In this document: positions 379-7,738 of the stretch, piece by piece
How positions within the stretch are numbered: the first letter of the stretch is position 1
Layout of the letters: each line of letters opens with the position of its first letter
The notes under the pieces: model-generated
What the model saw: only the letters and a program-made list of their open reading frames with translations
Told to the model about the DNA's origin: nothing
Database searches by the model: none
Virus record (IMG/VR): IMGVR_UViG_2703718823_000003
Length of the DNA: 7,738 nt
Reading direction: 5' to 3' (one strand)
From: a virus
Taxonomy: Duplodnaviria; Heunggongvirae; Uroviricota; Caudoviricetes
Made by a program: the position numbers and the translations under genes

Positions 379-678
379 ATGAGAACATATTTATCTGGCT
401 TGACTGCCAGCGGCCCCGCTCGGCCTGAAATCCGCCCAGGAGATATTTTCAGAGATAACTACGGTGGCGTTGTTGAGATTAAAGGCGTGGCAGAACGGCG
501 CATTACCTACCGCCGTGAAGGCTACGAATATGATTGCGTGATGCCTGTTTATCAGTTCCAGCGTGATTTTTCTCTGGTACAGGCAGCGCCCCGCAGTAAA
601 CCAACCAGCAGGGAGAAAGCACTCGCCAATATTCAGGAAATAAGAAAGATGTTGAATGTATTCAGGGGTAAAAAATGA
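379..678 (+). CDS. hypothetical protein (99 aa), translationally coupled to the primase gene
   Basis: ATG 379 with GGGGA upstream. Its stop overlaps the primase start as ATGA (675-678). No recognisable motif. Confidence 0.55.
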   Translation: MRTYLSGLTASGPARPEIRPGDIFRDNYGGVVEIKGVAERRITYRREGYEYDCVMPVYQFQRDFSLVQAAPRSKPTSREKALANIQEIRKMLNVFRGKK

Positions 679-2423
679 AACTGGCACCGAACGTAAAAAA
701 ACAACCACGCGGAATAAAACACAAAGACACAGAGGTAATTATTTTCGCGGGTAGTGATGCGTGGGCACATGCAAAACAGTGGCAGGAGCAGGACGGCCCC
801 GCATCCGGCGATAATGTGCCGCCTGTGTGGCTTGGGCCAAATCAGCTTGCCGAACTTGATGCACTGAAAATTGTTCCTGATGGAAAAAAACGCGTAAGGC
901 TGTACCAGGCCGGAGAACTGGATTTGGTGGAGACCAAAAAGATTGGTCAGAAGCTGGCGGCGGCAGATATTCAGGACGCAAATTTTTACCCCGAAGGAAT
1001 GCACGTCCAGAAGTGTGAAAACTGGCGGCGCTATCTGAATGCTGAGCGTGAAAATATTGCCGCAGGGCTTACCATGCCGGAGCAGAAAAATACGCAACTG
1101 GCACAAATGGCAGACAGTGAGCGCGCGCAGCTGCTTGCCGAGCGCTTTGATGGCGTTTGTGTGCATCCGGAAAGTGAAATCGTTCACGTATGGCGCGGCG
1201 GGGTATGGTGTCCGGTCAGCACAATGGAACTTAGCCGCGAAATGGTGGCGATCTATTCAGAGCACAGGGCCACTTTCAGCAAGCGCGTAATCAATAACGC
1301 CGTGGAAGCGTTAAAAGTTATTGCCGAACCAATGGGCGAGCCGTCCGGCGATTTGTTGCCGTTCGCCAATGGTGCGCTTGACCTGAAAACGGGGGAATTT
1401 TCCCCGCACACGCCGGAGAACTGGATCACCACGCACAACGGCATTGAGTACACGCCACCAGCACCAGGGGAGAATATCTGCGACAACGCGCCAAACTTTC
1501 ATAAATGGCTTGAGCACGCAGCCGGAAAAGACCCGCGCAAGATGATGCGTATATGTGCCGCGCTGTACATGATTATGGCGAACCGGTACGACTGGCAGAT
1601 GTTTATTGAGGCCACCGGAGAGGGCGGTAGCGGTAAAAGTACATTCACGCACATAGCCAGCCTTCTGGCAGGGAAACAGAACACGGTAAGCGCTGAAATG
1701 ACCTCACTTGATGATGCTGGTGGACGTGCGCAGGTTGTCGGGAGTCGTCTTATCGTCCTGGCTGACCAGCCGAAATATACAGGCGAAGGAACGGGCATCA
1801 AGAAAATCACGGGCGGCGACCCCGTGGAAATAAACCCGAAATATGAGAAGCGTTTTACGGCGGTAATCAGGGCGGTGGTGCTGGCTACCAACAATAACCC
1901 GATGATATTCACCGAGCGGGCCGGAGGTGTGTCACGCCGTCGGGTGATTTTCCGGTTCGACAACATTGTAAGGGAGGACGAAAAAGACAAGGATTTGCCG
2001 GAGAAGGTCGCGGCTGAAATCCCCGTAATTATCCGTCGCTTGCTGGCTAATTTTGCCGACCCTGAAAAGGCACGGGCTTTATTACTGGAACAGCGCGACG
2101 GTGATGAAGCTCTGGCAATAAAGCAACAGACGGATCCGGTTATTGAGTTTTGCCAGTTCCTGAATTTTCTGGAGGAAGCACGCGGCCTGATGATGGGCGG
2201 CGGTGGCGATTCAGTGAAGTACACGACCAGAAACAGCCTTTACCGCGTCTATCTGGCGTTTATGGCATACGCAGGCAGGAGCAAACCGCTAAACGTGGCT
2301 GAGTTCAGCAAGGCCATGAAGCCAGCGGCAAAAGTTTACGGACATGAATATATTACGCGGAGAGTTAAGGGAGTAACGCAGACCAACGCAATTACAACTG
2401 ATGATTGTGACGCGTTTTTATAA
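675..2423 (+). CDS. Satellite/phage-type DNA primase-helicase replication initiator (P4-alpha / D5-like P-loop NTPase family), 582 aa
   Basis: Longest ORF in the window. Walker A motif GEGGSGKST encoded around nt 1614-1643, followed by a hydrophobic-stretch-plus-acidic Walker-B-like segment (RLIVLADQ). Size and layout resemble primase/helicase proteins of P4-like and PICI elements. An iteron array lies immediately downstream. Family assignment is from motif recognition, not a search. Confidence 0.85.
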   Translation: MKLAPNVKKQPRGIKHKDTEVIIFAGSDAWAHAKQWQEQDGPASGDNVPPVWLGPNQLAELDALKIVPDGKKRVRLYQAGELDLVETKKIGQKLAAADIQDANFYPEGMHVQKCENWRRYLNAERENIAAGLTMPEQKNTQLAQMADSERAQLLAERFDGVCVHPESEIVHVWRGGVWCPVSTMELSREMVAIYSEHRATFSKRVINNAVEALKVIAEPMGEPSGDLLPFANGALDLKTGEFSPHTPENWITTHNGIEYTPPAPGENICDNAPNFHKWLEHAAGKDPRKMMRICAALYMIMANRYDWQMFIEATGEGGSGKSTFTHIASLLAGKQNTVSAEMTSLDDAGGRAQVVGSRLIVLADQPKYTGEGTGIKKITGGDPVEINPKYEKRFTAVIRAVVLATNNNPMIFTERAGGVSRRRVIFRFDNIVREDEKDKDLPEKVAAEIPVIIRRLLANFADPEKARALLLEQRDGDEALAIKQQTDPVIEFCQFLNFLEEARGLMMGGGGDSVKYTTRNSLYRVYLAFMAYAGRSKPLNVAEFSKAMKPAAKVYGHEYITRRVKGVTQTNAITTDDCDAFL

Positions 2424-2436
2424 TTTTTTGTAAAAG

Positions 2437-2664
2437 CCCTCTACCCCATCTACCTGAATGAAATAAACGCATATTATTCAACATGATAAGTGGGTAGAGG
2501 GCTAGGTAGAAGGCTAATAAAACCTCTCTACCTCTTCTACCATGATTAAGATCGTTTGTGAGGGGCGGGTAGAGGATGGGTAGAGGGCCACGAAAGCCCT
2601 CTACCCATCTGAAAGCCGCGCCATTACTGACATGAAAGATGATTAGGTAGAGAGGTAGAGGAGG
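2437..2664. repeat. Iteron array, probable origin of replication
   Basis: About 11 copies of the core GGTAGAG(G) / (C)CTCTACC in both orientations, for example 2437-2445, 2446-2454, 2492-2501, 2504-2513, 2523-2532, 2533-2541, 2568-2576, 2579-2587, 2597-2606, 2646-2655, 2654-2661. The block 2568-2588 is an inverted copy of 2436-2454. Position directly 3' of the primase gene matches the usual pri-ori arrangement in PICI/P4-type elements. Confidence 0.7.
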
Positions 2665-2709: not shown

Positions 2710-2967
2710 ATGCACACATCAGGAAGATTTAACAAATCACTCAAAAAACGCAGAGACAGAACAGAACCGAAATATCGCGCGTTAGACATGACAGAGCACG
2801 CTTTAAAGGTGGCAATCAGAACGATAGACCGCCACGCGGGGGGAAGGATACGCGAAAGCACATCCCGAACTGATAAGCGCATTCATGACCACGACGGCGG
2901 CAAATTTTGCCACGCTGACAGAGCGGGAGATTGCCGAAGCGGAACAGGTAACAACCATCAACGTTAA
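2710..2967 (+). CDS. hypothetical small basic protein (85 aa), low confidence
   Basis: ATG 2710 with GAGGG about 12 nt upstream. Product is Arg/His/Asp-rich and low in complexity, with several rare codons (AGA, AGG, ATA). It fills the gap between ori and the SSB-like gene. Confidence 0.3.
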   Translation: MHTSGRFNKSLKKRRDRTEPKYRALDMTEHALKVAIRTIDRHAGGRIRESTSRTDKRIHDHDGGKFCHADRAGDCRSGTGNNHQR

Positions 2968-2985: not shown

Positions 2986-3396
2986 ATGACAGCACAGATA
3001 GCAGCTTACGGGCGGCTGGTGGACGACCCGCAGGTAAAACAGACCAGCAAGGGCACACCAATGACGCTGGCACGTATGGCGGTATCGTTGCCATGTAGTC
3101 AGGCGCAGGATGGGCAGGCGACGTTATGGCTATCGGTCATCGCATTTGGTAAGCAGGCCGACTTCCTGGCTAAACATCAAAAAGGCGACGTTGCCAGCGT
3201 ATCCGGCACGATGCAGGTCAGCCAGTGGACCGGACAGAACGGGGAAACGCGGCAGGGTTATCAGGTTATTGCAGACAGCGTAATCAGTGCCCGTGCGGCA
3301 CGTCCTGGCGGGAACAGACGCAAAACCACAGGCACACAGGGTAATCAGCCACCAGCGGGAGACGATGACCCCTACGGTGATGATATTCAGTTCTGA
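2986..3396 (+). CDS. ssb: Single-stranded DNA-binding protein (SSB family, OB fold) with a divergent acidic C-terminal tail, 136 aa
   Basis: Translation aligns by eye with E. coli SSB: an N-terminal OB-fold pattern (GRLVDDPQV.. / LWLSVIAFGKQAD.. / VSQWTGQNGETRQGYQVIADSV), a Gly/Gln/Pro-rich linker, and an acidic tail DDDPYGDDIQF (compare DFDDDIPF). Comparison is from memory. Confidence 0.8.
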   Translation: MTAQIAAYGRLVDDPQVKQTSKGTPMTLARMAVSLPCSQAQDGQATLWLSVIAFGKQADFLAKHQKGDVASVSGTMQVSQWTGQNGETRQGYQVIADSVISARAARPGGNRRKTTGTQGNQPPAGDDDPYGDDIQF

Positions 3397-3406
3397 GGGG
3401 GTGACG

Positions 3407-3679
3407 ATGGTACATGACCGCATAGCGGAGGAACTCGAGGCAAAAGGCTTTTACCGGAGGGCATCGGCGCGATGGGGTGAAGTCATGCTGCTGGTGGAGA
3501 CAGACAAGGAACGGCATCAGGTTACGATGCGACGGCTGGAATGTTCCAGGAAGGCACAGAAGCCACCGGAGCCGCCGGATAACTTCGGAGACCTGAGAAA
3601 GGCAGTAGATCGCACTTATGCTGAAATGGGTATAGATGGTGTAAGCGATGAAATATGGCGTAATTACCCAGACAGCTAA
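3407..3679 (+). CDS. hypothetical protein (90 aa from ATG 3407)
   Basis: GAGGGGG (3395-3401) sits 5 nt before ATG 3407. The track ORF starts at an upstream GTG (3287) inside the SSB gene, which is less likely. Followed by terminator hairpins. Confidence 0.6.
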   Translation: MVHDRIAEELEAKGFYRRASARWGEVMLLVETDKERHQVTMRRLECSRKAQKPPEPPDNFGDLRKAVDRTYAEMGIDGVSDEIWRNYPDS

Positions 3680-3685
3680 TCAACA

Positions 3686-3708
3686 GCCGGAGTAATCCGG
3701 CTTTTTTG
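3686..3708 (+). terminator. Rho-independent terminator
   Basis: Stem GCCGGA (3686-3691) / TCCGGC (3696-3701), loop GTAA, then a T6 run (3702-3707), immediately after the stop at 3677-3679. Confidence 0.6.
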
Positions 3709-3713
3709 TACCC

Positions 3714-3757
3714 AAAAAAAGCCCGATAAGTACAGGAGGCATCTTATCGGGCTTTTG
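3714..3757. terminator. Second hairpin, possibly a bidirectional terminator
   Basis: 10-bp stem GCCCGATAAG (3721-3730) / CTTATCGGGC (3743-3752) flanked by an A7 run upstream and TTTTG downstream. Confidence 0.45.
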
Positions 3758-3835
3758 CATATGAGGTTTTTTTTGGTGCACTGACACACATGATCGGGAT
3801 CATCATTTCATAATTTGCAACACAACTCAACATCA

Positions 3836-3863
3836 TTGCATAAAATGCAATCATGATTATAAT
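3836..3863 (+). promoter_or_regulatory. Sigma70-like promoter for the capsid operon
   Basis: -35 TTGCAT (3836-3841), 16-bp spacer, -10 TATAAT (3858-3863), about 55 nt upstream of the ATG at 3920. A dyad TTGCAT-AAA-ATGCAA (3836-3850) overlaps the -35, and the palindrome AATCATGATT (3849-3858) lies in the spacer. Confidence 0.45.
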
Positions 3864-3868
3864 CAGAT

Positions 3869-3884
3869 CTGGATGAACATCCAG
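3869..3884. promoter_or_regulatory. Candidate operator (7-bp inverted repeat) just downstream of the -10
   Basis: CTGGATG-AA-CATCCAG, with perfect 7-bp arms, sits at about the predicted transcription start. Confidence 0.3.
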
Positions 3885-3919
3885 TTATGATTTTTTAAGT
3901 CAAAGAGGAATTTCTTACT

Positions 3920-4126
3920 ATGGCTGAAGAGAAAAAAGGCGGTGTTTCGGTGTACATAAGCCCCGACATCGTGAAGGCGCTCAAGGAACGCCACCAGCAG
4001 AACGTAAAAGCAGGCATTGCGGCAGGACTTGATCCGCTGGCGATGGTTGAGCCGTCAACAGGCTGGCAGGTACGCGCCTATTTACGCGCGGCGCTGGGTA
4101 TGAATCAGGTTCACGGGGGTGAATAA
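3920..4126 (+). CDS. hypothetical protein (68 aa), first gene of the capsid operon
   Basis: AAGAGGA upstream of ATG 3920. Its stop overlaps the capsid gene start as TAATG (4124-4128). No recognisable motif. Confidence 0.6.
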   Translation: MAEEKKGGVSVYISPDIVKALKERHQQNVKAGIAAGLDPLAMVEPSTGWQVRAYLRAALGMNQVHGGE

Positions 4127-5181
4127 TGACAGTAAAAGCAATAGCACTTAACACTAACCAGCTTTTTGCGTACCTGAATCGCGAGGATATTGCGGAATTT
4201 AAATTCAGTCCGCTGTTTACCGCGCTGTTTTTCCCGAACGTGGCGACATTCAACACACAGGACATCATGTTAGATAACCTGGATATTGAAGAAGTCACTA
4301 TGTCGGCGTTTTGTTCGCCTATGGTGGGTAGCCAGGTTCAGCGCGATAAAGGGTACGAAACAAGCATTATTCGCCCTGGCTACATGAAGCCAAAACACGA
4401 AATCGATCCATTAAAAACAATAATGCGCATGGCTGGAGAAGATCCAGCACAGCTTAACGACCCTACCTACCGCCGTATGCGCCTGATTACTGGCAACATG
4501 CGCCGCCAGATAAACGCCATTAAAGCGCGCGTGGAATGGCTGGCGGTAAATGCGGTAACGACCGGAAAAAACATCATTGAGGGCGAAGGCATAGAGCGCT
4601 ATGAAATCGACTGGAAGATACCGGAAAAAAACATCATAGAGCAGGCCGACGGTAAAAAATGGTCCGAGCAGGATAAAGACATACACGATCCAATCTATGA
4701 CATTGAGCTATACGCAGATCAGGCAGGTTGCCCCGCCAACGTCATGATTATGGGCGTTGATGTATGGCGCATGTTACGCAGCTTTAAAAAATTCCGTGAG
4801 CTGTACGATCTTTCCCGTGGTTCAGAATCCGCCGCAGAGCTGGCATGTAAAAACCTGGGCGAAGTGGTGAGCTTTAAGGGCTATCTTGGTGATCTGGCCC
4901 TTATCGTCTATTCCGGCAAATACACTGACAGCGACGGTACCGAAAAATATTTCCTTGAGCCTGATTTGCTGGTCCTGGGCAACACCAACAATAAAGGGCT
5001 GGTGGCCTATGGTGCGATTATGGAACAGGAAGCGGTCAGAACTGGCGCAACGCAAAACATGTACTACCCGAAAAACTGGATTGAGGACGGCGATCCGGCG
5101 ATTGAGTACGTGCAGACACACAGCGCACCGCAGCCGGTACCGGCAGATATTCGCAAATTTGTTACCGTCAAAATTGGTTAA
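4126..5181 (+). CDS. Major capsid protein, lambda gpE-like family, 351 aa
   Basis: Translation shares multiple collinear blocks with lambda gpE as recalled: EFKFSPLF..LFF (lambda KFKFDPLF..LFF), PGYMKPKHEI (PGYVKPKHEV), DPTYRRMRLI (DPAYRRRRII), WSEQDKDIHDP.YDIELYA (WSKRDKSTYDP.DDIEAYA), VSFKGYLGDLALIVYSGKY (VSYKGMYGDVAIVVYSGQY), VLGNT..GL.AYG (VLGNT..GL.TYG), YPKNW...GDPA (YPKNW..TGDPA). Length is close to lambda gpE (341 aa). Confidence 0.9.
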   Translation: MTVKAIALNTNQLFAYLNREDIAEFKFSPLFTALFFPNVATFNTQDIMLDNLDIEEVTMSAFCSPMVGSQVQRDKGYETSIIRPGYMKPKHEIDPLKTIMRMAGEDPAQLNDPTYRRMRLITGNMRRQINAIKARVEWLAVNAVTTGKNIIEGEGIERYEIDWKIPEKNIIEQADGKKWSEQDKDIHDPIYDIELYADQAGCPANVMIMGVDVWRMLRSFKKFRELYDLSRGSESAAELACKNLGEVVSFKGYLGDLALIVYSGKYTDSDGTEKYFLEPDLLVLGNTNNKGLVAYGAIMEQEAVRTGATQNMYYPKNWIEDGDPAIEYVQTHSAPQPVPADIRKFVTVKIG

Positions 5182-5192
5182 CGGGGGATTCT

Positions 5193-5528
5193 ATGAACAC
5201 TCCATACGTTGAGTTATTTGCAGGCAGTCAGCAGGTATCAACGACGCTGGTACATTTTGCCGCTGATGCTGGCGTTATTCAGGAATTTACCCCGCTGATG
5301 CTGGCGGACAATGGCGAGTTTAAGCCGTGGGATGGTCAGGAATCTGGCAAGGCTGTTTATCTGACTTCGTATCCTGTGGACACGTCAAAGCAGAAATCAG
5401 CACAGTGTTACAAGACGGGGATATTCAATATTGCCGCCGTTAACTGGCCTGAGAGCGTCGACACCGATGCGAAAAAATGCGCCGCCTTTGCGGGTTCCGG
5501 CGTATCAGTTCAGCCGCTGGCCCGATAA
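5193..5528 (+). CDS. Head decoration protein, lambda gpD-like family, 111 aa
   Basis: Blocks shared with lambda gpD as recalled: TPLML, WDG, YKTGIF (YKSGTF), WPE, KK.AAFAGSG (KKRTAFAGT). Length matches gpD (110 aa). GGGGGA RBS 4 nt before the ATG. Confidence 0.85.
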   Translation: MNTPYVELFAGSQQVSTTLVHFAADAGVIQEFTPLMLADNGEFKPWDGQESGKAVYLTSYPVDTSKQKSAQCYKTGIFNIAAVNWPESVDTDAKKCAAFAGSGVSVQPLAR

Positions 5529-5540
5529 GCAGGGGGAACG

Positions 5541-5954
5541 ATGGCAACGAATGAAAGCATCATGGCGCTACCGCTGGCGAGTAAATTTAAAGAAGAAGCG
5601 CGGGCAATGGCTGACAGAGGTTTATCAACATACGAGGCCGTATATCAACTCAACAAACTGGAAGAGCAGGACAAGCCGCGCGCTGATGCGATTATGGCGC
5701 TTCATGAGCATAAAGACTATCAGCCGCTGTTACGTGCAATGGCAAACGTGCCATGTATTAGCGTCGATAATGCTCGTGAAATCCTGAACATGACCATAGA
5801 GCAGGAGCGCCCAAAGGTTGCACCAGAGCTTACCGCAGCCTTTGAAAACTTTATGGACATGCACAGCCCGCAAGCCGTATCAGCTGGCATGGCATACGAT
5901 GGCAGAAACCAGGGCGATGACGGCGACATCGATCGCATACTGAAAACCATCTGA
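5541..5954 (+). CDS. hypothetical protein (137 aa), last gene of the capsid operon, directly upstream of cos
   Basis: AGGGGGA RBS before ATG 5541. Acidic C-terminus. No motif recognised. Followed by a hairpin and T-run. Confidence 0.65.
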   Translation: MATNESIMALPLASKFKEEARAMADRGLSTYEAVYQLNKLEEQDKPRADAIMALHEHKDYQPLLRAMANVPCISVDNAREILNMTIEQERPKVAPELTAAFENFMDMHSPQAVSAGMAYDGRNQGDDGDIDRILKTI

Positions 5955-5960
5955 GACAAG

Positions 5961-5983
5961 GCCGGAGAAATCCGGCTTTTTTT
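5961..5983 (+). terminator. Rho-independent terminator overlapping the cosQ-side flank
   Basis: Stem GCCGGA (5961-5966) / TCCGGC (5971-5976), loop GAAA, T7 run (5977-5983). The hairpin is nearly identical to the one at 3686-3708. Confidence 0.5.
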
Positions 5984-6211
5984 ACGGGTCCTTTCCGGCA
6001 TATGGACCCGTTACGGGGCGGCGACCTCGCGGTTTTTCGCTATTTATGAGATTTTTTGAGGGGGTGGTTGTTGTTTAATTGTTTGGTATATCTAATTGAT
6101 AAGTAAGGTAAAAATAAAATAAATACAACAACCTTACGATGTATTTTGATGTCATTAATGTGAAAAAATTCAATGATATCAAATGGTTTTGTAAAAACAC
6201 ATGGTTGTTGT
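5984..6211 (+). other. cos site 1 (lambda-type cosQ-flank, cosN, cosB-like region), + orientation
   Basis: TTTACGGGTCCTTTCCGG...GTTACG | GGGCGGCGACCT | CGCGG matches the lambda right-end/cosN/left-end junction as recalled; the 12-nt cohesive-end sequence GGGCGGCGACCT is at 6016-6027. Downstream there are three copies of GGTTGTTGT (6066-6074 direct, 6125-6133 inverted, 6203-6211 direct), spaced like lambda cosB R3/R2/R1. Confidence 0.7.
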
Positions 6212-6404
6212 ATCGCGTATTTGATGGCGTAACAGAAAGTGATTTTTAACTTTACCGCTCTGTAACTACGGATTATTCCATGCTGGCACGGAGAACGGCT
6301 ACGGCATGACGCCACCCAGCCTATACAGAACAGTAAAGCCGATAAATTGTTAATCACGCGCAGCAATGCGTGTGATTTTTGCACACTTCCGGTTAACTGG
6401 TACG

Positions 6405-6590
6405 ATGTCCGGTTTTAGTGTCTGTTTTTTGCGCATGTCCGGTTCATGGAAAGCATGTTTTTATATTTTTCATATGGTTAACTTGCAGAGAAACCGGACA
6501 TGGATCCCGGAAAATTTTCATAAATAGTGAAAACGCGCGAGGTCGCCGCCCCGTAACGGGCCATAATTCCAGGAAGGACCCGACGACACC
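6405..6590 (-). other. cos site 2 (lambda-type cosQ-flank, cosN, cosB-like region), inverted orientation
   Basis: The reverse complement of 6500-6590 reads ..GGGTCCTTCC.GG....CCCGTTACG | GGGCGGCGACCT | CGCGCGTTTTCACTATTTATGAAAATTTTCCGG, almost identical to the lambda cos left end as recalled; cosN is at 6540-6551 on the minus strand. Three copies of ATGTCCGGTT / AACCGGACAT lie at 6492-6501, 6435-6444 and 6405-6414, at R3/R2/R1-like distances. Confidence 0.7.
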
Positions 6591-6615: not shown

Positions 6616-6897
6616 ATGACAGAAGCCGAACTACTGCGATTAATCCGTCGCGTTGCCGGAATCAGCCAGCAGGCTGACGAACAGGCCACGCAGCCGGACA
6701 GCGTGACAGCCGAAAATTATGTGCGTGTTGTTGCGGAGGTGATGCGCCGTGATGGTATCCAGCTTAATGATGCGGATATGCGCGACATACGGATCCGCGT
6801 TCTTGAAATGCTGGCCTACCGTCGCCGCGTGCAGACGTACAGGGAAAAAGCAAAAATAACGTACCAGTGGAAGAAGCCGGAGCGATTACGGCGGTAA
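6616..6897 (+). CDS. hypothetical protein (93 aa), Arg-rich
   Basis: ATG 6616 with a GGGGG stretch about 5 nt upstream. The track ORF extends upstream to GTG 6418, through the cos sequence, which is unlikely. Ends at TAA 6895-6897. No motif recognised. Confidence 0.55.
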   Translation: MTEAELLRLIRRVAGISQQADEQATQPDSVTAENYVRVVAEVMRRDGIQLNDADMRDIRIRVLEMLAYRRRVQTYREKAKITYQWKKPERLRR

Positions 6898-6917
6898 CTT
6901 GCTGATATTCCCGATAA

Positions 6918-7157
6918 CGCAAAATTGCGCTCTGTCCTAACCCGTTGATATTTTCGGGAACAGCCAACGGCTGAGGCCGGAACAACGATTATCTTTCAGA
7001 TAGTCAGAGCTACGAAATTTTCGTAGTTTAATTACTCGCCAGTTTATCGTTAACCCGTTGATATTTTCGGAAACCTCAATTTGAGGAAGTCGGCGCGGTA
7101 ACTCGCTGAACTTTAAGCAAAGCGCAAAATTGCGCTTGCTGAATAATCATTATGATT
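6918..7157. repeat. Cluster of direct repeats and dyad symmetries (candidate regulatory region)
   Basis: 20-bp direct repeat TAACCCGTTGATATTTTCGG at 6938-6957 and 7051-7070. Dyad CGCAA-AA-TTGCG at 6918-6929 and, extended, at 7121-7136. Palindromes CTACGAAA-T-TTTCGTAG (7010-7026), CCTCAA-T-TTGAGG (7074-7086), AATCAT-T-ATGATT (7145-7157). Confidence 0.5.
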
Positions 7158-7213
7158 ACGCAGATGATTAAGGAATGACCGAAGGCGGAAATTCGCCTGT
7201 GGTTAATGGGGGA

Positions 7214-7433
7214 GTTGCAGATCTGCAACTCGACCATGAAACTACGGAAACTACCCGTAGTTTGGGTAGTAAGAGTAACACCCAGATTTTGGGGCTTACT
7301 CGTGATACCCAAATTTGGGGTATCGGTGGCAACCATAACGACTTTCGTTACGGTTGATGCTTTTACCCCATTGGTGGAGGCTGGGCGGCCTGCTGTGGGC
7401 TTTTCCACCATTGGTGGAAAGGTGCAGATCTGG
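7214..7433. other. Palindrome-rich, potentially highly structured segment (candidate ncRNA or protein-recognition DNA)
   Basis: Perfect 16-bp palindrome GTTGCAGATCTGCAAC (7214-7229) with a related copy TGCAGATCTG (7423-7432). Hairpin AAACTACGG / CCGTAGTTT (7239-7263) with a competing ACTACCC / GGGTAGT pairing. Hairpin GATACCC-AAATTTG-GGGTATC (7304-7324). Hairpin TAACGA-CTT-TCGTTA (7336-7350). CCATTGGTGG (7368-7377) can pair with CCACCATTGG (7405-7414). Confidence 0.3.
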
Positions 7434-7633
7434 ATCATCATTACGGTGATCAAGGGTATGTAAAACCCACCAGCCTGATTAACAGTTAACCGGAAAAAAA
7501 TTCCGGTAGGTGGGGATCCCCATATCGACATTAACGCCCCTCATGAATTAGCGCGCTTCCCCCTGGAAAGATGACCCGCCTGTATATTTCTTGTGTCTAT
7601 TTGTTCCACGTTGTTTCATACAGTGCACCGAAC

Positions 7634-7655
7634 GGTGTAGTCACTGGTGTAGTCA
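7634..7655. promoter_or_regulatory. Tandem 12-bp repeat in an AT-rich region at the window edge
   Basis: GGTGTAGTCACT GGTGTAGTCATT, followed by AT-rich sequence running to the end of the window. Likely a control region for something outside the window. Confidence 0.25.
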
Positions 7656-7738
7656 TTTTGCGATTTATGGCATTTTTTGTAGTGCAAATTATTTAATTAA
7701 ATCAATGCGTTAAGTGAAATTAGTTATATATAACAGCA

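What the first reader, a model, noticed from the sequence alone, without database searches (positions are those of the whole stretch)
3920..5954. Lambda gpE-like capsid and gpD-like decoration genes on a satellite replication backbone, without portal, protease, scaffold or terminase nearby
The capsid pair sits in a four-gene operon (68-aa ORF, E-like, D-like, 137-aa ORF) directly between a primase/iteron/SSB module and the cos sites. The order E then D is reversed relative to lambda (D then E). No portal, protease, scaffold or terminase gene is recognisable anywhere in the window. This is not the usual layout of a lambdoid prophage head module, nor of satellites that carry a full head module. 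It suggests a satellite that supplies its own capsid shell proteins while borrowing the helper portal and terminase, possibly to build capsids sized for a small genome. The flanking 68-aa and 137-aa proteins are candidates for scaffold, size-determination or packaging-accessory roles.
Basis: partly seen in the sequence, partly recalled or inferred. Interest (0 to 1): 0.75.

Follow-up and report, generated by a model that had tools for sequence, protein, structure and literature searches.

The report
Known PICI satellite capsid gene module
This is the capsid operon of a well-studied type of E. coli phage satellite (the EcCICFT073 family): it encodes its own lambda-like shell, decoration and, as shown here, scaffold proteins, and published knock-outs have found no phenotype for them.

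Summary
Window 3920-5954 is a four-gene operon: a 68-aa ORF, a lambda gpE-family major capsid protein (Pfam E=2e-49; 97% identical to crystal structure 3BQW from E. coli CFT073), a gpD/SHP-family decoration protein, and a 137-aa ORF. It lies between a primase/iteron/SSB/PerC module and two cos sites.

It is not new. The window is about 90% identical to EcCICFT073, the prototype Gram-negative phage-inducible chromosomal island. In that island these genes are c1498-c1501. Near-identical islands are about 11 kb and are bounded by an integrase and core chromosomal genes, with no portal, protease or large terminase. The module is full length in 592 of 5,426 complete E. coli genomes.

Published work shows that c1499, c1500 and the whole c1498-c1501 block are dispensable for transfer. 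They do not cause interference, and DNA packaged with lambda is phage-sized. The "own small capsids" reading is therefore unsupported for the helpers tested.

What I add:
- The 137-aa protein is a free-standing Nu3-type scaffold homolog (phrog_1999 shared with the phage 21 and lambda scaffolds; hhalign 96.7%).
- The capsid, decoration and scaffold proteins are about equally diverged (37-45%) from those of the CFT073 resident prophage.
- The genes are intact and under purifying selection.

Function remains unresolved.

The parts
675..2423 (+). Context: PICI replication initiator (D5_N / DUF5906 primase family)
   Evidence: PF08706 at 1e-15, PF19263 at 2.5e-10, phrog_864 at 8e-170. 89% identical to the CFT073 island primase.
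2433..2660 (.). Context: iteron-type replication origin (GGGTAGAGGGC repeats in both orientations)
   Evidence: the repeat finder families D1-D4 and I1-I11. The position 3' of the initiator gene matches the published PICI ori (PMC6092414).
2986..3396 (+). Context: SSB
   Evidence: PF00436 at 4e-17.
3407..3679 (+). Context: PerC-family regulator directly upstream of the capsid operon
   Evidence: PF06069 at 5e-45.
3685..3757 (+). Two terminator-like hairpins that separate the replication/PerC unit from the capsid operon
   Evidence: Hairpin 3685-3702 plus a T run. Second hairpin AGCCCGATAAG/CTTATCGGGCT at 3720-3753, flanked by an A run and a T run, read from the sequence.
3815..3863 (+). Putative operon promoter: TTGCAA box 3815-3820, palindrome ATTGCATAAAATGCAAT 3835-3851, -35 TTGCAT 3836-3841, 16-nt spacer, -10 TATAAT 3858-3863
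   Evidence: Read from the sequence. The TTGC..TGCAAT box and TTATAATCA are invariant in E. coli, Salmonella and Pluralibacter islands whose proteins have diverged to 55-69% identity. Function is inferred, not shown.
3869..3897 (+). Leader hairpin CTGGATGAACATCCAG followed by a U-rich run, between the -10 and the ribosome binding site
   Evidence: Terminator-like site in the scan. A hairpin plus T run is retained, at a shifted position, in Pluralibacter. Its role (attenuator or operator) is unknown.
3920..4126 (+). 68-aa protein (EcCICFT073 c1498 homolog), function unknown; its stop overlaps the capsid gene start (ATGA)
   Evidence: phrog_3255 at 8e-37 with no Pfam or NCBIfam hit. Always directly upstream of the capsid gene in E. 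coli, Salmonella and Pluralibacter islands. The model is a beta-hairpin plus two helices at pLDDT 74.5, with no PDB fold match.
4126..5181 (+). Major capsid protein, lambda gpE family, HK97 fold (c1499 homolog)
   Evidence: PF03864 at 2e-49. 97% identical to 3BQW and E=3e-81 to lambda gpE 7VI9. 43% identical to lambda gpE. Best match among 50,697 phage records is 48%. dN/dS 0.13.
5193..5528 (+). Head decoration (cement) protein, gpD/SHP family (c1500 homolog)
   Evidence: PF02924 at 6e-18. Phage 21 SHP 1TD0 at 1.4e-13. 36% identical to gpD. dN/dS 0.10.
5541..5954 (+). Free-standing Nu3-type scaffolding protein homolog without a protease domain (c1501 homolog)
   Evidence: phrog_1999 at 1e-64, with a weaker hit to the C-terminus of phrog_53 head maturation protease. 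39% identical to the C-terminal 85 aa of the phage 21 scaffolding protein, E=6e-12. The phage 21 and lambda Nu3 proteins both hit phrog_1999, at 1.8e-69 and 2.7e-26. hhalign 96.7%. All-helical, low-confidence model.
5961..5983 (+). Intrinsic terminator ending the operon (GCCGGA-GAAA-TCCGGC plus T7)
   Evidence: Read from the sequence.
5984..6062 (+). cos1: cosQ-like ACGGGTCCTTTCCGG; cosN with the lambda cohesive end at 6016-6027
   Evidence: 79-94% identical to the cos regions of phage 21 and other lambdoid phages. Exact 12-mer match. cos1 and cos2 are described for EcCICFT073 (PMC6739421).
6540..6551 (-). cos2: second cosN core in inverted orientation
   Evidence: Exact 12-mer on the minus strand.
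6616..6897 (+). Context: probable RppA ortholog (redirects the helper small terminase to the PICI cos site)
   Evidence: 87% identical to the 93-aa CFT073 island protein, which sits where gene order places c1503. c1503 is RppA (PMC6739421). The locus-tag mapping rests on gene order only.

Best explanation
IDENTITY (about 0.95). The region is the capsid operon (c1498-c1501 homologs) of a classical cos-type Gram-negative phage-inducible chromosomal island of the EcCICFT073 family.

It is its own transcription unit. Terminators lie upstream. A conserved TTGCAT-16-TATAAT promoter region with a palindrome and a leader hairpin follows. A terminator closes the operon just before cos1.

It encodes four proteins:
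- a 68-aa protein of unknown function, translationally coupled to the capsid gene;
- a lambda-gpE-type HK97-fold major capsid protein;
- a gpD/SHP-type decoration protein;
- a free-standing Nu3-type internal scaffold that lacks the protease domain.

From established knowledge of lambda head assembly, E, Nu3 and D are the proteins that build and then cement the shell. Portal, protease, terminase, head-completion proteins and tail must all come from the helper. The island's Rpp redirects the helper terminase to the island's cos site.

MECHANISM (inferred, about 0.4-0.5). The three proteins are a co-adapted shell set that the satellite keeps for itself. After helper induction they would be made late and assemble on the helper portal, alone or mixed with helper gpE. 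The helper protease would remove the scaffold, and the satellite decoration protein would cement the shell. This would give extra or alternative capsids for satellite DNA.

The benefit would be conditional. It would matter when helper capsid supply is limiting, incompatible or interrupted, for example for islands integrated inside helper head genes, or with helpers other than those tested. That would explain why the block is dispensable with lambda, phi80 and the CFT073 helper prophage. No result shows that these proteins are in particles.
For: Identity:
- About 90% DNA identity to the CFT073 island and 98.8% to an island in STEC2018-607.
- Island boundaries run from an integrase to core genes, about 11 kb, with no head or tail genes outside.
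- c1499 (capsid) and c1500 (decoration) are named in PMC6092414. PDB 3BQW is 97% identical.
- cos1, cos2 and an Rpp homolog are present.

Shell set:
- Pfam, PHROG and PDB hits for the capsid and decoration proteins.
- Scaffold homology for the 137-aa protein.

Maintained function:
- dN/dS is 0.13 (capsid), 0.10 (decoration), 0.31 (scaffold) and 0.36 (68-aa ORF). SSB is 0.06 and Rpp 0.20.
- In 80 IMG/VR loci the 68-aa ORF and capsid gene are intact in 80 of 80, the decoration gene in 78 of 79 not cut by a contig end, and the scaffold gene in 68.
- The module is full length in 592 of 5,426 E. coli genomes.
- It travels with different replicons and attachment sites.

Old, co-diverged set:
- No phage record exceeds 48% identity for the capsid protein.
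- Against the 21-like prophage resident in CFT073, the capsid protein is 45% identical, the decoration protein 43% and the scaffold 37%.
- The 68-aa/E/D trio is conserved in Salmonella and Pluralibacter islands.

Link to interrupted helper head genes: islands with this module sit inside portal or terminase genes (PMC10111431).
Against: - Deleting c1499 or c1500 did not change transfer by the resident prophages. The authors state they found no phenotype for c1499 (PMC6092414).
- The islands marked with c1499::cat or c1501::tetA still transferred.
- Islands with the whole c1498-c1501 block replaced by cas9 or melA were used as transducing particles from a phi80 cosN-deleted helper. I did not retrieve their titres relative to wild type (PMC10530653, PMC10460865).
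- Only c1503 gave interference when genes downstream of ori were expressed singly (PMC6739421).
- DNA packaged with lambda was phage-sized.
- Nothing shows that the proteins assemble or enter particles.
- The Pluralibacter capsid gene is split by a frameshift in two assemblies, so loss is tolerated in some lineages.
- The 68-aa protein is unexplained.
Confidence: 0.5

Rival explanations
1. Capsid-size redirection. The satellite capsid protein, with its own scaffold and decoration protein, makes or templates small capsids that fit one or two copies of the roughly 11-kb island. This would resemble Ccm of SaPIbov5, but only with natural helpers not yet examined.
For: - A capsid homolog in a cos satellite is the SaPIbov5 Ccm precedent.
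- PmCI172, a Gram-negative PICI with a capsid homolog, makes small capsids (PMC6092414).
- Island sizes are narrow, about 11.0-11.4 kb by my estimate from gene coordinates in six loci.
- A private scaffold is the kind of protein that sets shell size in other systems. That last point rests on established knowledge of P4 Sid and SaPI CpmB.
Against: - With lambda all packaged DNA was phage-sized.
- No PICI-monomer band was seen in CFT073.
- The authors conclude that the island is packaged in full-size capsids (PMC6092414, PMC6739421).
- Deleting c1499 or c1500 gave no transfer defect.
Confidence: 0.15
2. Helper interference. The satellite capsid, decoration or scaffold proteins co-assemble with helper proteins and poison helper head assembly.
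For: Satellites commonly interfere at capsid assembly. At 43-48% identity to helper gpE, mixed assembly is plausible. That is inference.
Against: Deleting c1499 or c1500 did not restore lambda plaquing. Expressing each gene downstream of ori singly gave interference only for c1503, and deleting c1503 fully restored plaquing (PMC6739421).
Confidence: 0.08
3. Neutral leftover. The genes are a remnant of an old capture of phage head genes with no present function, carried as replaceable cargo.
For: No phenotype has been found. The block can be swapped for cas9 or melA, and the authors place the cas9 insertion in what they call the 'adaptable module' of the island. The capsid gene is frameshifted in Pluralibacter.
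Against: - dN/dS is 0.10-0.36 at synonymous divergence 0.11-0.48.
- The capsid gene is intact in 80 of 80 IMG/VR loci.
- The module is full length in 592 E. coli genomes.
- The promoter region is conserved across genera.
- The module is retained while replicons and attachment sites are exchanged.
Confidence: 0.07
4. The 137-aa protein is a head-tail connector, as NCBI's PGAP pipeline names it in some genomes, rather than a scaffold.
For: The product name 'phage head-tail connector protein' appears on several RefSeq homologs.
Against: - No Pfam or NCBIfam connector family hits it.
- It shares phrog_1999 with the phage 21 and lambda Nu3 scaffolds.
- It aligns with the C-terminus of the S49 protease/scaffold, and hhalign gives 96.7%.
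- The model is all-helical with a disordered tail.
Confidence: 0.03
5. The window is part of a defective or intact lambdoid prophage whose other head genes lie outside it.
For: In 4 of 80 IMG/VR loci, lambda-like portal, protease or terminase sequence lies next to the module.
Against: In those four loci the helper gene is cut mid-frame, for example the portal from residue 273 onward. The island is therefore inserted into a prophage gene, as described for helper-embedded PICIs (PMC10111431). All chromosomal islands inspected end in core genes about 11 kb from the integrase.
Confidence: 0.01

Closest known systems
EcCICFT073 (prototype Gram-negative PICI of E. coli CFT073), genes c1498-c1501
   Same: - Same gene order and content: DUF4222, primase, ori, SSB, PerC, 68-aa ORF, capsid, decoration, 137-aa ORF, cos1, cos2, Rpp.
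- About 90% DNA identity over 86% of the window. The operon alone is 94.5% identical.
- The capsid protein is 95% identical.
   Different: - It is an allelic variant.
- The window lacks the 144-aa ORF that lies between c1501 and the Rpp gene in CFT073.
- Its closest relatives sit at other attachment sites, tRNA-Pro/yejM or cspD/clpS rather than roxA/phoQ.
Lambda / phage 21 head-shell genes C(Nu3)-D-E
   Same: Homologous capsid, decoration and scaffold proteins. The cosN core is the same.
   Different: - The order is E-D-Nu3-like instead of Nu3-D-E.
- The scaffold is a separate gene with no S49 protease domain and keeps only two of phage 21's three repeats plus the tail.
- There is no portal, terminase, W, FI or FII.
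- Identity is only 36-48%.
- An extra 68-aa gene has no phage counterpart.
SaPIbov5 Ccm (capsid homolog of a cos-packaged staphylococcal satellite)
   Same: A cos satellite carrying a homolog of its helper's HK97-fold capsid protein.
   Different: Ccm redirects helper capsids to a small size and blocks the phage. For EcCICFT073 no size change and no interference were found. This module also carries its own decoration and scaffold proteins.
Capsid-forming PICIs (cf-PICIs, e.g. EcCIEDL933)
   Same: Same int/alpA/rep backbone family, and the satellite encodes capsid proteins.
   Different: cf-PICIs encode the complete head and packaging set: capsid, protease, portal, connectors, HNH, TerS and TerL. 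They make their own small capsids. This island has only shell, cement and scaffold, and relies on cos plus Rpp with the helper terminase.
P4 Sid and Psu
   Same: A satellite-encoded scaffold and a decoration protein acting on a helper-type shell (plus established knowledge of P4).
   Different: P4 uses the P2 capsid protein and has no capsid gene of its own. Sid is an external scaffold unrelated to Nu3, and Psu is unrelated to gpD.

Membership tests
Classical Gram-negative PICI (EcCICFT073 type) | Integrase at one end and insertion at a specific attachment site, bounded by core genes; total size about 10-15 kb | tested here: met
   The window does not reach that far. Islands 98.8% (L001), 99.6% over the operon (L012) and about 90% (CFT073) identical have an integrase next to tRNA-Pro, cspD or roxA and end in core genes about 11 kb away.
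Classical Gram-negative PICI (EcCICFT073 type) | AlpA-type activator downstream of int | tested here: met
   A small HTH regulator follows int in L001, L002, L006, L012, L013 and L014, and carries PF12728 in L007 and L008. It lies outside the window itself.
Classical Gram-negative PICI (EcCICFT073 type) | Own replication initiator with an iteron origin 3' of it | tested here: met
   Primase at 675-2423. Iterons at 2433-2660.
Classical Gram-negative PICI (EcCICFT073 type) | Helper-type cos site(s) and Rpp; no large terminase, portal, lysis or tail genes | tested here: met
   cosN at 6016-6027 and 6540-6551. Rpp homolog at 87% identity. No such genes in the window or in the flanks of relatives.
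Classical Gram-negative PICI (EcCICFT073 type) | Helper-dependent induction and high-frequency transfer | not testable with these tools
   Shown experimentally for the roughly 90%-identical EcCICFT073 (PMC6092414), not for this allele.
Lambda gpE major capsid family (PF03864, HK97 fold) | Full-length match to the family profile and an HK97 fold | tested here: met
   PF03864 at 2e-49 over residues 26-349. 97% identical to crystal structure 3BQW and E=3e-81 to the lambda gpE cryo-EM chain 7VI9.
Lambda gpD / phage 21 SHP decoration family (PF02924) | Match to the family profile over the trimer-forming core | tested here: met
   PF02924 at 6e-18 over residues 9-103. 1TD0/1TD3 at 1.4e-13 and 1C5E at 3.7e-9. 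Trimer formation and binding to the satellite capsid protein were not tested.
Nu3-type internal scaffolding protein of lambdoid phages | Sequence homology to the repeat region and C-terminal tail of Nu3-type scaffolds | tested here: met
   39% identical, E=6e-12, to the phage 21 scaffold C-terminus. The PHROG family is shared with the phage 21 and lambda Nu3 proteins. hhalign 96.7%.
Nu3-type internal scaffolding protein of lambdoid phages | Encoded in-frame inside the 3' part of the S49 protease gene (C/Nu3 nesting) | tested here: not met
   It is a free-standing 137-aa gene placed after D, with no S49 domain anywhere in the window.
Nu3-type internal scaffolding protein of lambdoid phages | Acts as a scaffold in procapsid assembly and is removed by the protease | not testable with these tools
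   The only structural evidence is an all-helical, low-confidence model.
Capsid-forming PICI (cf-PICI) | Encodes portal, maturation protease, head-tail connectors and small plus large terminase | tested here: not met
   None in the window or in the flanks of relatives. In 80 IMG/VR loci, lambda-type A, B or C hits occur only in four islands inserted into prophage genes. The tblastn queries were lambda-type proteins only.
Ccm-type capsid-size redirection (SaPIbov5) | The satellite capsid homolog causes small capsids and blocks the helper | not testable with these tools
   Published tests on EcCICFT073 with lambda were negative (PMC6092414). Other helpers have not been tested.

The most novel reading that the evidence does not exclude
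EcCICFT073-type islands may represent an intermediate piracy strategy between classical PICIs, which steal the whole virion, and cf-PICIs, which steal only tails. Under this reading they build the shell from their own co-adapted capsid, scaffold and decoration trio, with the 68-aa protein as an unknown assembly factor. They would take only portal, protease, terminase and tail from the helper. With some natural helpers this might yield satellite-specific, perhaps smaller, capsids. It might also allow transfer from helpers whose capsid genes are interrupted, incompatible or blocked. Laboratory helpers lambda and phi80 would mask this by redundancy.
Probability: 0.2. Interest if true: 0.7.

Novelty: already known. 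Interest (0 to 1): 0.3.

Why it matters
The module sits in about one in nine complete E. coli genomes, including Nissle 1917, O157:H7 and CFT073. It is under clear purifying selection, yet no phenotype has been published for it. Recognising that it contains the complete shell-building trio (capsid, scaffold, cement), and not only a capsid and decoration pair, turns a vague puzzle into a direct test. That test is whether satellite transfer survives helper E, D or Nu3 mutations, and whether the satellite proteins are found in particles. It is also relevant to engineering, because this block is the one replaced by payloads in PICI-based delivery vehicles. For the genome scan itself the finding is a rediscovery of a described feature.

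Tried and rejected
- **68-aa ORF.** No Pfam or NCBIfam family. The Pfam scan at E up to 0.1 also gave no gpW-family hit, so the idea that it is a gpW-like adaptor, raised only because both are 68 aa, has no support. No tblastn match in 50,697 phage records. The AlphaFold model is a beta-hairpin plus two helices at pLDDT 74.5, and Foldseek against the PDB gave nothing below E=1. A ribbon-helix-helix-like regulator remains a guess.
- **137-aa ORF.** Direct BLASTP against lambda C or Nu3 was not significant. There was no PDB sequence match. The indexed protein search found only E. coli homologs at 82% identity or more. The exhaustive HMMER search found nine proteins, of which three were informative. 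The model was too poor (pLDDT 62) to justify a fold search.
- **Rpp-like protein.** No PDB sequence match, so the solved RppC is too divergent for phmmer.
- **Operon promoter.** No DNA similarity to any phage late-promoter region. The distant search of 3700-6100 hit only the cos region and a short stretch of the capsid gene. Control by a helper Q-type antiterminator is therefore untested speculation.
- **Literature.** A search for PICI with scaffolding and Nu3 returned nothing. Searches from 2022-2023 onward found no paper that assigns a function to these genes.
- **Prophage and cf-PICI readings.** Rejected from the genomic contexts.


Full report
**1. What is in the sequence**

Window 3920-5954 holds four co-directional ORFs: 68 aa (3920-4126), 351 aa (4126-5181), 111 aa (5193-5528) and 137 aa (5541-5954).

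- The 351-aa protein matches Pfam Phage_cap_E (PF03864) at E=2e-49 and PHROG major-head family phrog_29 at 1.8e-107. It is 43% identical to lambda gpE over 328 residues with only two gaps.
- The 111-aa protein matches Pfam HDPD (PF02924) at 6e-18. It is 36% identical to lambda gpD over 76 residues. Its closest solved relative is the phage 21 decoration protein SHP.

The flanks are also as described:
- Upstream lie a D5_N-type primase (675-2423), GGGTAGAGGGC iterons (2433-2660), SSB (2986-3396) and a PerC-family gene (3407-3679).
- Downstream lie two exact copies of the lambda cohesive end GGGCGGCGACCT, at 6016-6027 on the plus strand and 6540-6551 on the minus strand. None is expected by chance.
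- The region 5980-6063 is 79-94% identical to the cos regions of phage 21 and other lambdoid phages.

**2. Where it comes from**

The whole window matches the E. coli CFT073 chromosome at 1,381,936-1,389,176 with about 90% identity. It matches an island in strain STEC2018-607 with 98.8% identity.

The CFT073 locus is EcCICFT073, the prototype Gram-negative phage-inducible chromosomal island (PICI). Fillol-Salom et al. 2018 name c1499 as a putative capsid protein and c1500 as a head decoration protein (PMC6092414). The crystal structure 3BQW, deposited as 'putative capsid protein of prophage', is 97% identical to the window's protein.

I inspected islands in six E. coli chromosomal loci and one metagenome contig. 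In each one:
- the element starts with an integrase beside tRNA-Pro, cspD, roxA or another core gene;
- it continues through a small HTH regulator, icd-like genes, a replication initiator, SSB, usually PerC, the four-gene operon, cos and an Rpp-like gene;
- it ends in core genes about 11 kb later.

No portal, protease, large terminase, lysis or tail gene is present. This is a satellite.

**3. How common the module is**

- The 2,035-bp operon is present over at least 80% of its length in 592 of 5,426 complete E. coli genomes, at 90-99.6% identity. These include Nissle 1917, O157:H7 strains and CFT073.
- In 80 IMG/VR contigs carrying a capsid gene at least 92% identical, the 68-aa ORF and capsid gene are intact in all 80. 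The decoration gene is intact in 78 of the 79 not cut by a contig end. The 137-aa gene is intact in 68.
- Lambda-type portal, protease or terminase sequence appears in only four of these contigs. There the helper gene is cut mid-frame, for example the portal from residue 273. This is the helper-embedded PICI arrangement described by Mageeney et al. 2023. That paper also reports a capsid gene in 21 of 29 reference Gram-negative PICIs (PMC10111431).
- The 68-aa/E/D trio recurs in a Salmonella island inserted in a terminase gene and in a Pluralibacter island. Protein identities there are 55-69%.

The layout is therefore typical for this satellite class, not unusual.

**4. New annotation: the 137-aa protein is a Nu3-type scaffold**

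- It belongs to phrog_1999 (E=1e-64). It also hits the C-terminal 75 positions of the head-maturation-protease family phrog_53 (E=1e-10).
- Its only tblastn hit among phages lies at the 3' end of the S49 protease/scaffold gene, just upstream of the decoration and capsid genes of a 21-like phage.
- Residues 49-131 align with the last 85 residues of the annotated phage 21 scaffolding protein at 39% identity, E=6e-12.
- The phage 21 scaffold matches phrog_1999 over its full length (E=1.8e-69), and lambda Nu3 matches it at 2.7e-26.
- A profile-profile comparison of the island family against Nu3-type scaffolds gives 96.7% probability, E=3.7e-10.
- Scaffolds of the 21 type carry repeats of the form IMxxEEAxGRE..LA..PGMTV..AR.ILAA followed by a tail (F[ED].FM..HSP.AV); lambda Nu3 shares the repeat motif. 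The island protein corresponds to two repeats plus the tail.
- Direct BLASTP against lambda Nu3 is not significant.
- The AlphaFold model is all-helical with a disordered C-terminal region and a terminal helix. Its confidence is low (pLDDT 62). I therefore use it only as consistent with a scaffold, not as evidence.
- NCBI's PGAP pipeline names some homologs 'phage head-tail connector protein'. No Pfam or NCBIfam model supports that name.
- No paper in the searchable library links PICIs with a Nu3-type scaffold.

**5. The module as a unit**

*Transcription unit.*
- The stop codon of the 68-aa ORF overlaps the capsid start codon (ATGA at 4126), which suggests coupled translation.
- Two terminator-like hairpins precede the operon (3685-3757). 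A strong terminator follows it (5961-5983), immediately before cos1.
- The upstream region contains TTGCAT-16-TATAAT (3836-3863), a perfect palindrome ATTGCATAAAATGCAAT (3835-3851) and a leader hairpin with a U run (3869-3897).
- These elements are conserved in Salmonella and Pluralibacter islands even though the proteins have diverged.
- What controls this promoter is unknown. There is no DNA similarity to phage late promoters.

*Selection.* Pairwise Nei-Gojobori dN/dS across eight E. coli loci:

| Gene | dN/dS |
|---|---|
| Capsid | 0.13 |
| Decoration | 0.10 |
| Scaffold | 0.31 |
| 68-aa ORF | 0.36 |
| SSB (comparison) | 0.06 |
| Rpp (comparison) | 0.20 |

*Divergence from phages.*
- No phage among 50,697 records has a capsid protein more than 48% identical.
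- Against the 21-like prophage at icd in CFT073 itself, the island's capsid protein is 45% identical, the decoration protein 43% and the scaffold 37%.
- I assume, but did not verify, that this prophage is the published helper 'phage 4'.

The three proteins therefore look like an old, co-diverged set maintained by selection. They do not look like a recent capture or a decaying remnant. The same module is combined with different initiators (primase at 48-100% identity, or a RepA helicase) and different attachment sites.

**6. What experiments already say**

In EcCICFT073:
- Deleting c1499 or c1500 neither restored lambda plaquing nor changed transfer. The authors write that they found no phenotype for c1499.
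- Marker insertions c1499::cat and c1501::tetA were used routinely and still transferred.
- DNA packaged with lambda was phage-sized (PMC6092414).
- Among genes downstream of ori expressed singly, only c1503 (RppA) interfered with lambda (PMC6739421).
- Islands with the whole c1498-c1501 block replaced by cas9 or melA were produced from a phi80 cosN-deleted helper and used as transducing particles. I did not retrieve their titres relative to wild type (PMC10530653, PMC10460865).
- Reviews note that the capsid homolog exists but that packaging is into normal-size capsids (PMC6893505).

**7. Most likely mechanism**

*Shown.* The operon encodes homologs of the proteins that, in lambda, build (E with Nu3) and cement (D) the shell. 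The role of those lambda proteins is established knowledge. The genes are conserved and constrained, and the rest of the head and packaging machinery is absent from the island.

*Inferred.* After helper induction the satellite makes its own shell subunits. These would assemble on the helper portal, alone or mixed with helper gpE. They would be matured by the helper protease and cemented by the satellite's own decoration protein. The helper terminase, redirected by Rpp to the satellite cos, would fill them.

Because the block is dispensable with three helpers, any benefit must be conditional. It could act as a backup or extra capsid supply, provide compatibility with other helpers, or rescue the case where the island interrupts a helper head gene.

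I give identity about 0.95 and this mechanism about 0.4-0.5.

*Rivals.*
- Ccm-like size redirection with untested helpers: 0.15.
- Assembly poisoning: 0.08. This is contradicted by the deletion and single-gene expression data.
- Neutral remnant: 0.07. This is contradicted by selection and intactness.
- The connector annotation for the 137-aa protein: 0.03.
- Prophage: 0.01.

*Size arithmetic (inference only).* Islands of 11.0-11.4 kb fit three or four copies in a 43-48 kb head. One copy would fit a shell of about 28% of lambda's volume.

**8. Verdict**

The finding is a correct reading of a feature that is already described and has been tested experimentally. Its speculative part, own small capsids, is not supported for the helpers tested.

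The additions here are:
- the scaffold assignment for the c1501 homolog;
- the evidence for a co-diverged shell trio under purifying selection;
- the conserved regulatory region;
- the population frequency.

The function of the module and of the 68-aa protein remains open.

Noticed in passing
window 6016-6027 (+) and 6540-6551 (-), with 6028-6539 between them: The two cosN cores are in inverted orientation. They bracket about 510 bp of AT-rich sequence with no plus-strand ORF of 60 aa or more lying wholly between them. In CFT073 a 144-aa ORF lies between the scaffold gene and the Rpp gene. In O157 islands a 180-aa 'terminase small subunit' sits there. This inter-cos slot appears to be a variable cargo position.
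   Followed up: partly
window 3815-3897: A conserved regulatory region lies upstream of the 68-aa ORF. It has TTGCA boxes, the palindrome ATTGCATAAAATGCAAT overlapping a TTGCAT -35, a perfect TATAAT, and a hairpin plus U run in the leader. The elements are invariant across E. coli, Salmonella and Pluralibacter islands. The regulator is unknown; candidates are PerC, AlpA, the 68-aa protein or a helper late factor.
   Followed up: partly
window 3920-4126 compared with L006, L011 and L013: Within E. coli the 68-aa ORF occurs as two allelic types. One is 98-100% identical to the window. The other is only 63-69% identical. The adjacent capsid gene stays 92-95% identical. This implies a recombination boundary at the junction of the 68-aa ORF and the capsid gene.
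   Followed up: partly
L007 10213-11254 and L008 7791-8832 (Pluralibacter gergoviae islands): The E-type capsid gene is split by a frameshift near residue 177. This is seen in both an NCBI assembly and an independent read-set assembly. The flanking 68-aa ORF and decoration gene are intact. It may be a pseudogene or a recoding site.
   Followed up: no
L001 and L012 (both in E. coli STEC2018-607): One strain carries two islands at different attachment sites, tRNA-Pro/yejM and cspD/clpS. Their capsid operons are nearly identical: the 68-aa, decoration and scaffold proteins are 100% identical. Their primases are only 48% identical. This indicates exchange of the capsid module between islands.
   Followed up: partly
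L019, L055, L058, L081 (IMG/VR) and L009 (Salmonella): Islands carrying this module are inserted inside helper portal or terminase genes. For example, portal sequence resumes at residue 273 downstream of the island, and the L009 integrase lies directly after a GpA_ATPase fragment. These fit the published helper-embedded PICIs.
   Followed up: partly
RefSeq homologs of window 5541-5954 (e.g. L006 10622-11035): PGAP names the Nu3-like scaffold homolog 'phage head-tail connector protein' in some genomes and 'hypothetical protein' in others. The connector name is probably a misannotation.
   Followed up: yes
window 2710-2967: An 85-aa ORF between the origin and SSB has no family hit. Its counterpart is annotated as frameshifted in STEC2018-607 (L001 11684-11963) but intact in CFT073.
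   Followed up: no
window 6900-7738: No ORF here has a family hit and there is no tRNA. Similarity to the closest island (L001) ends near 7515. The right island junction or attachment site probably lies near there.
   Followed up: no
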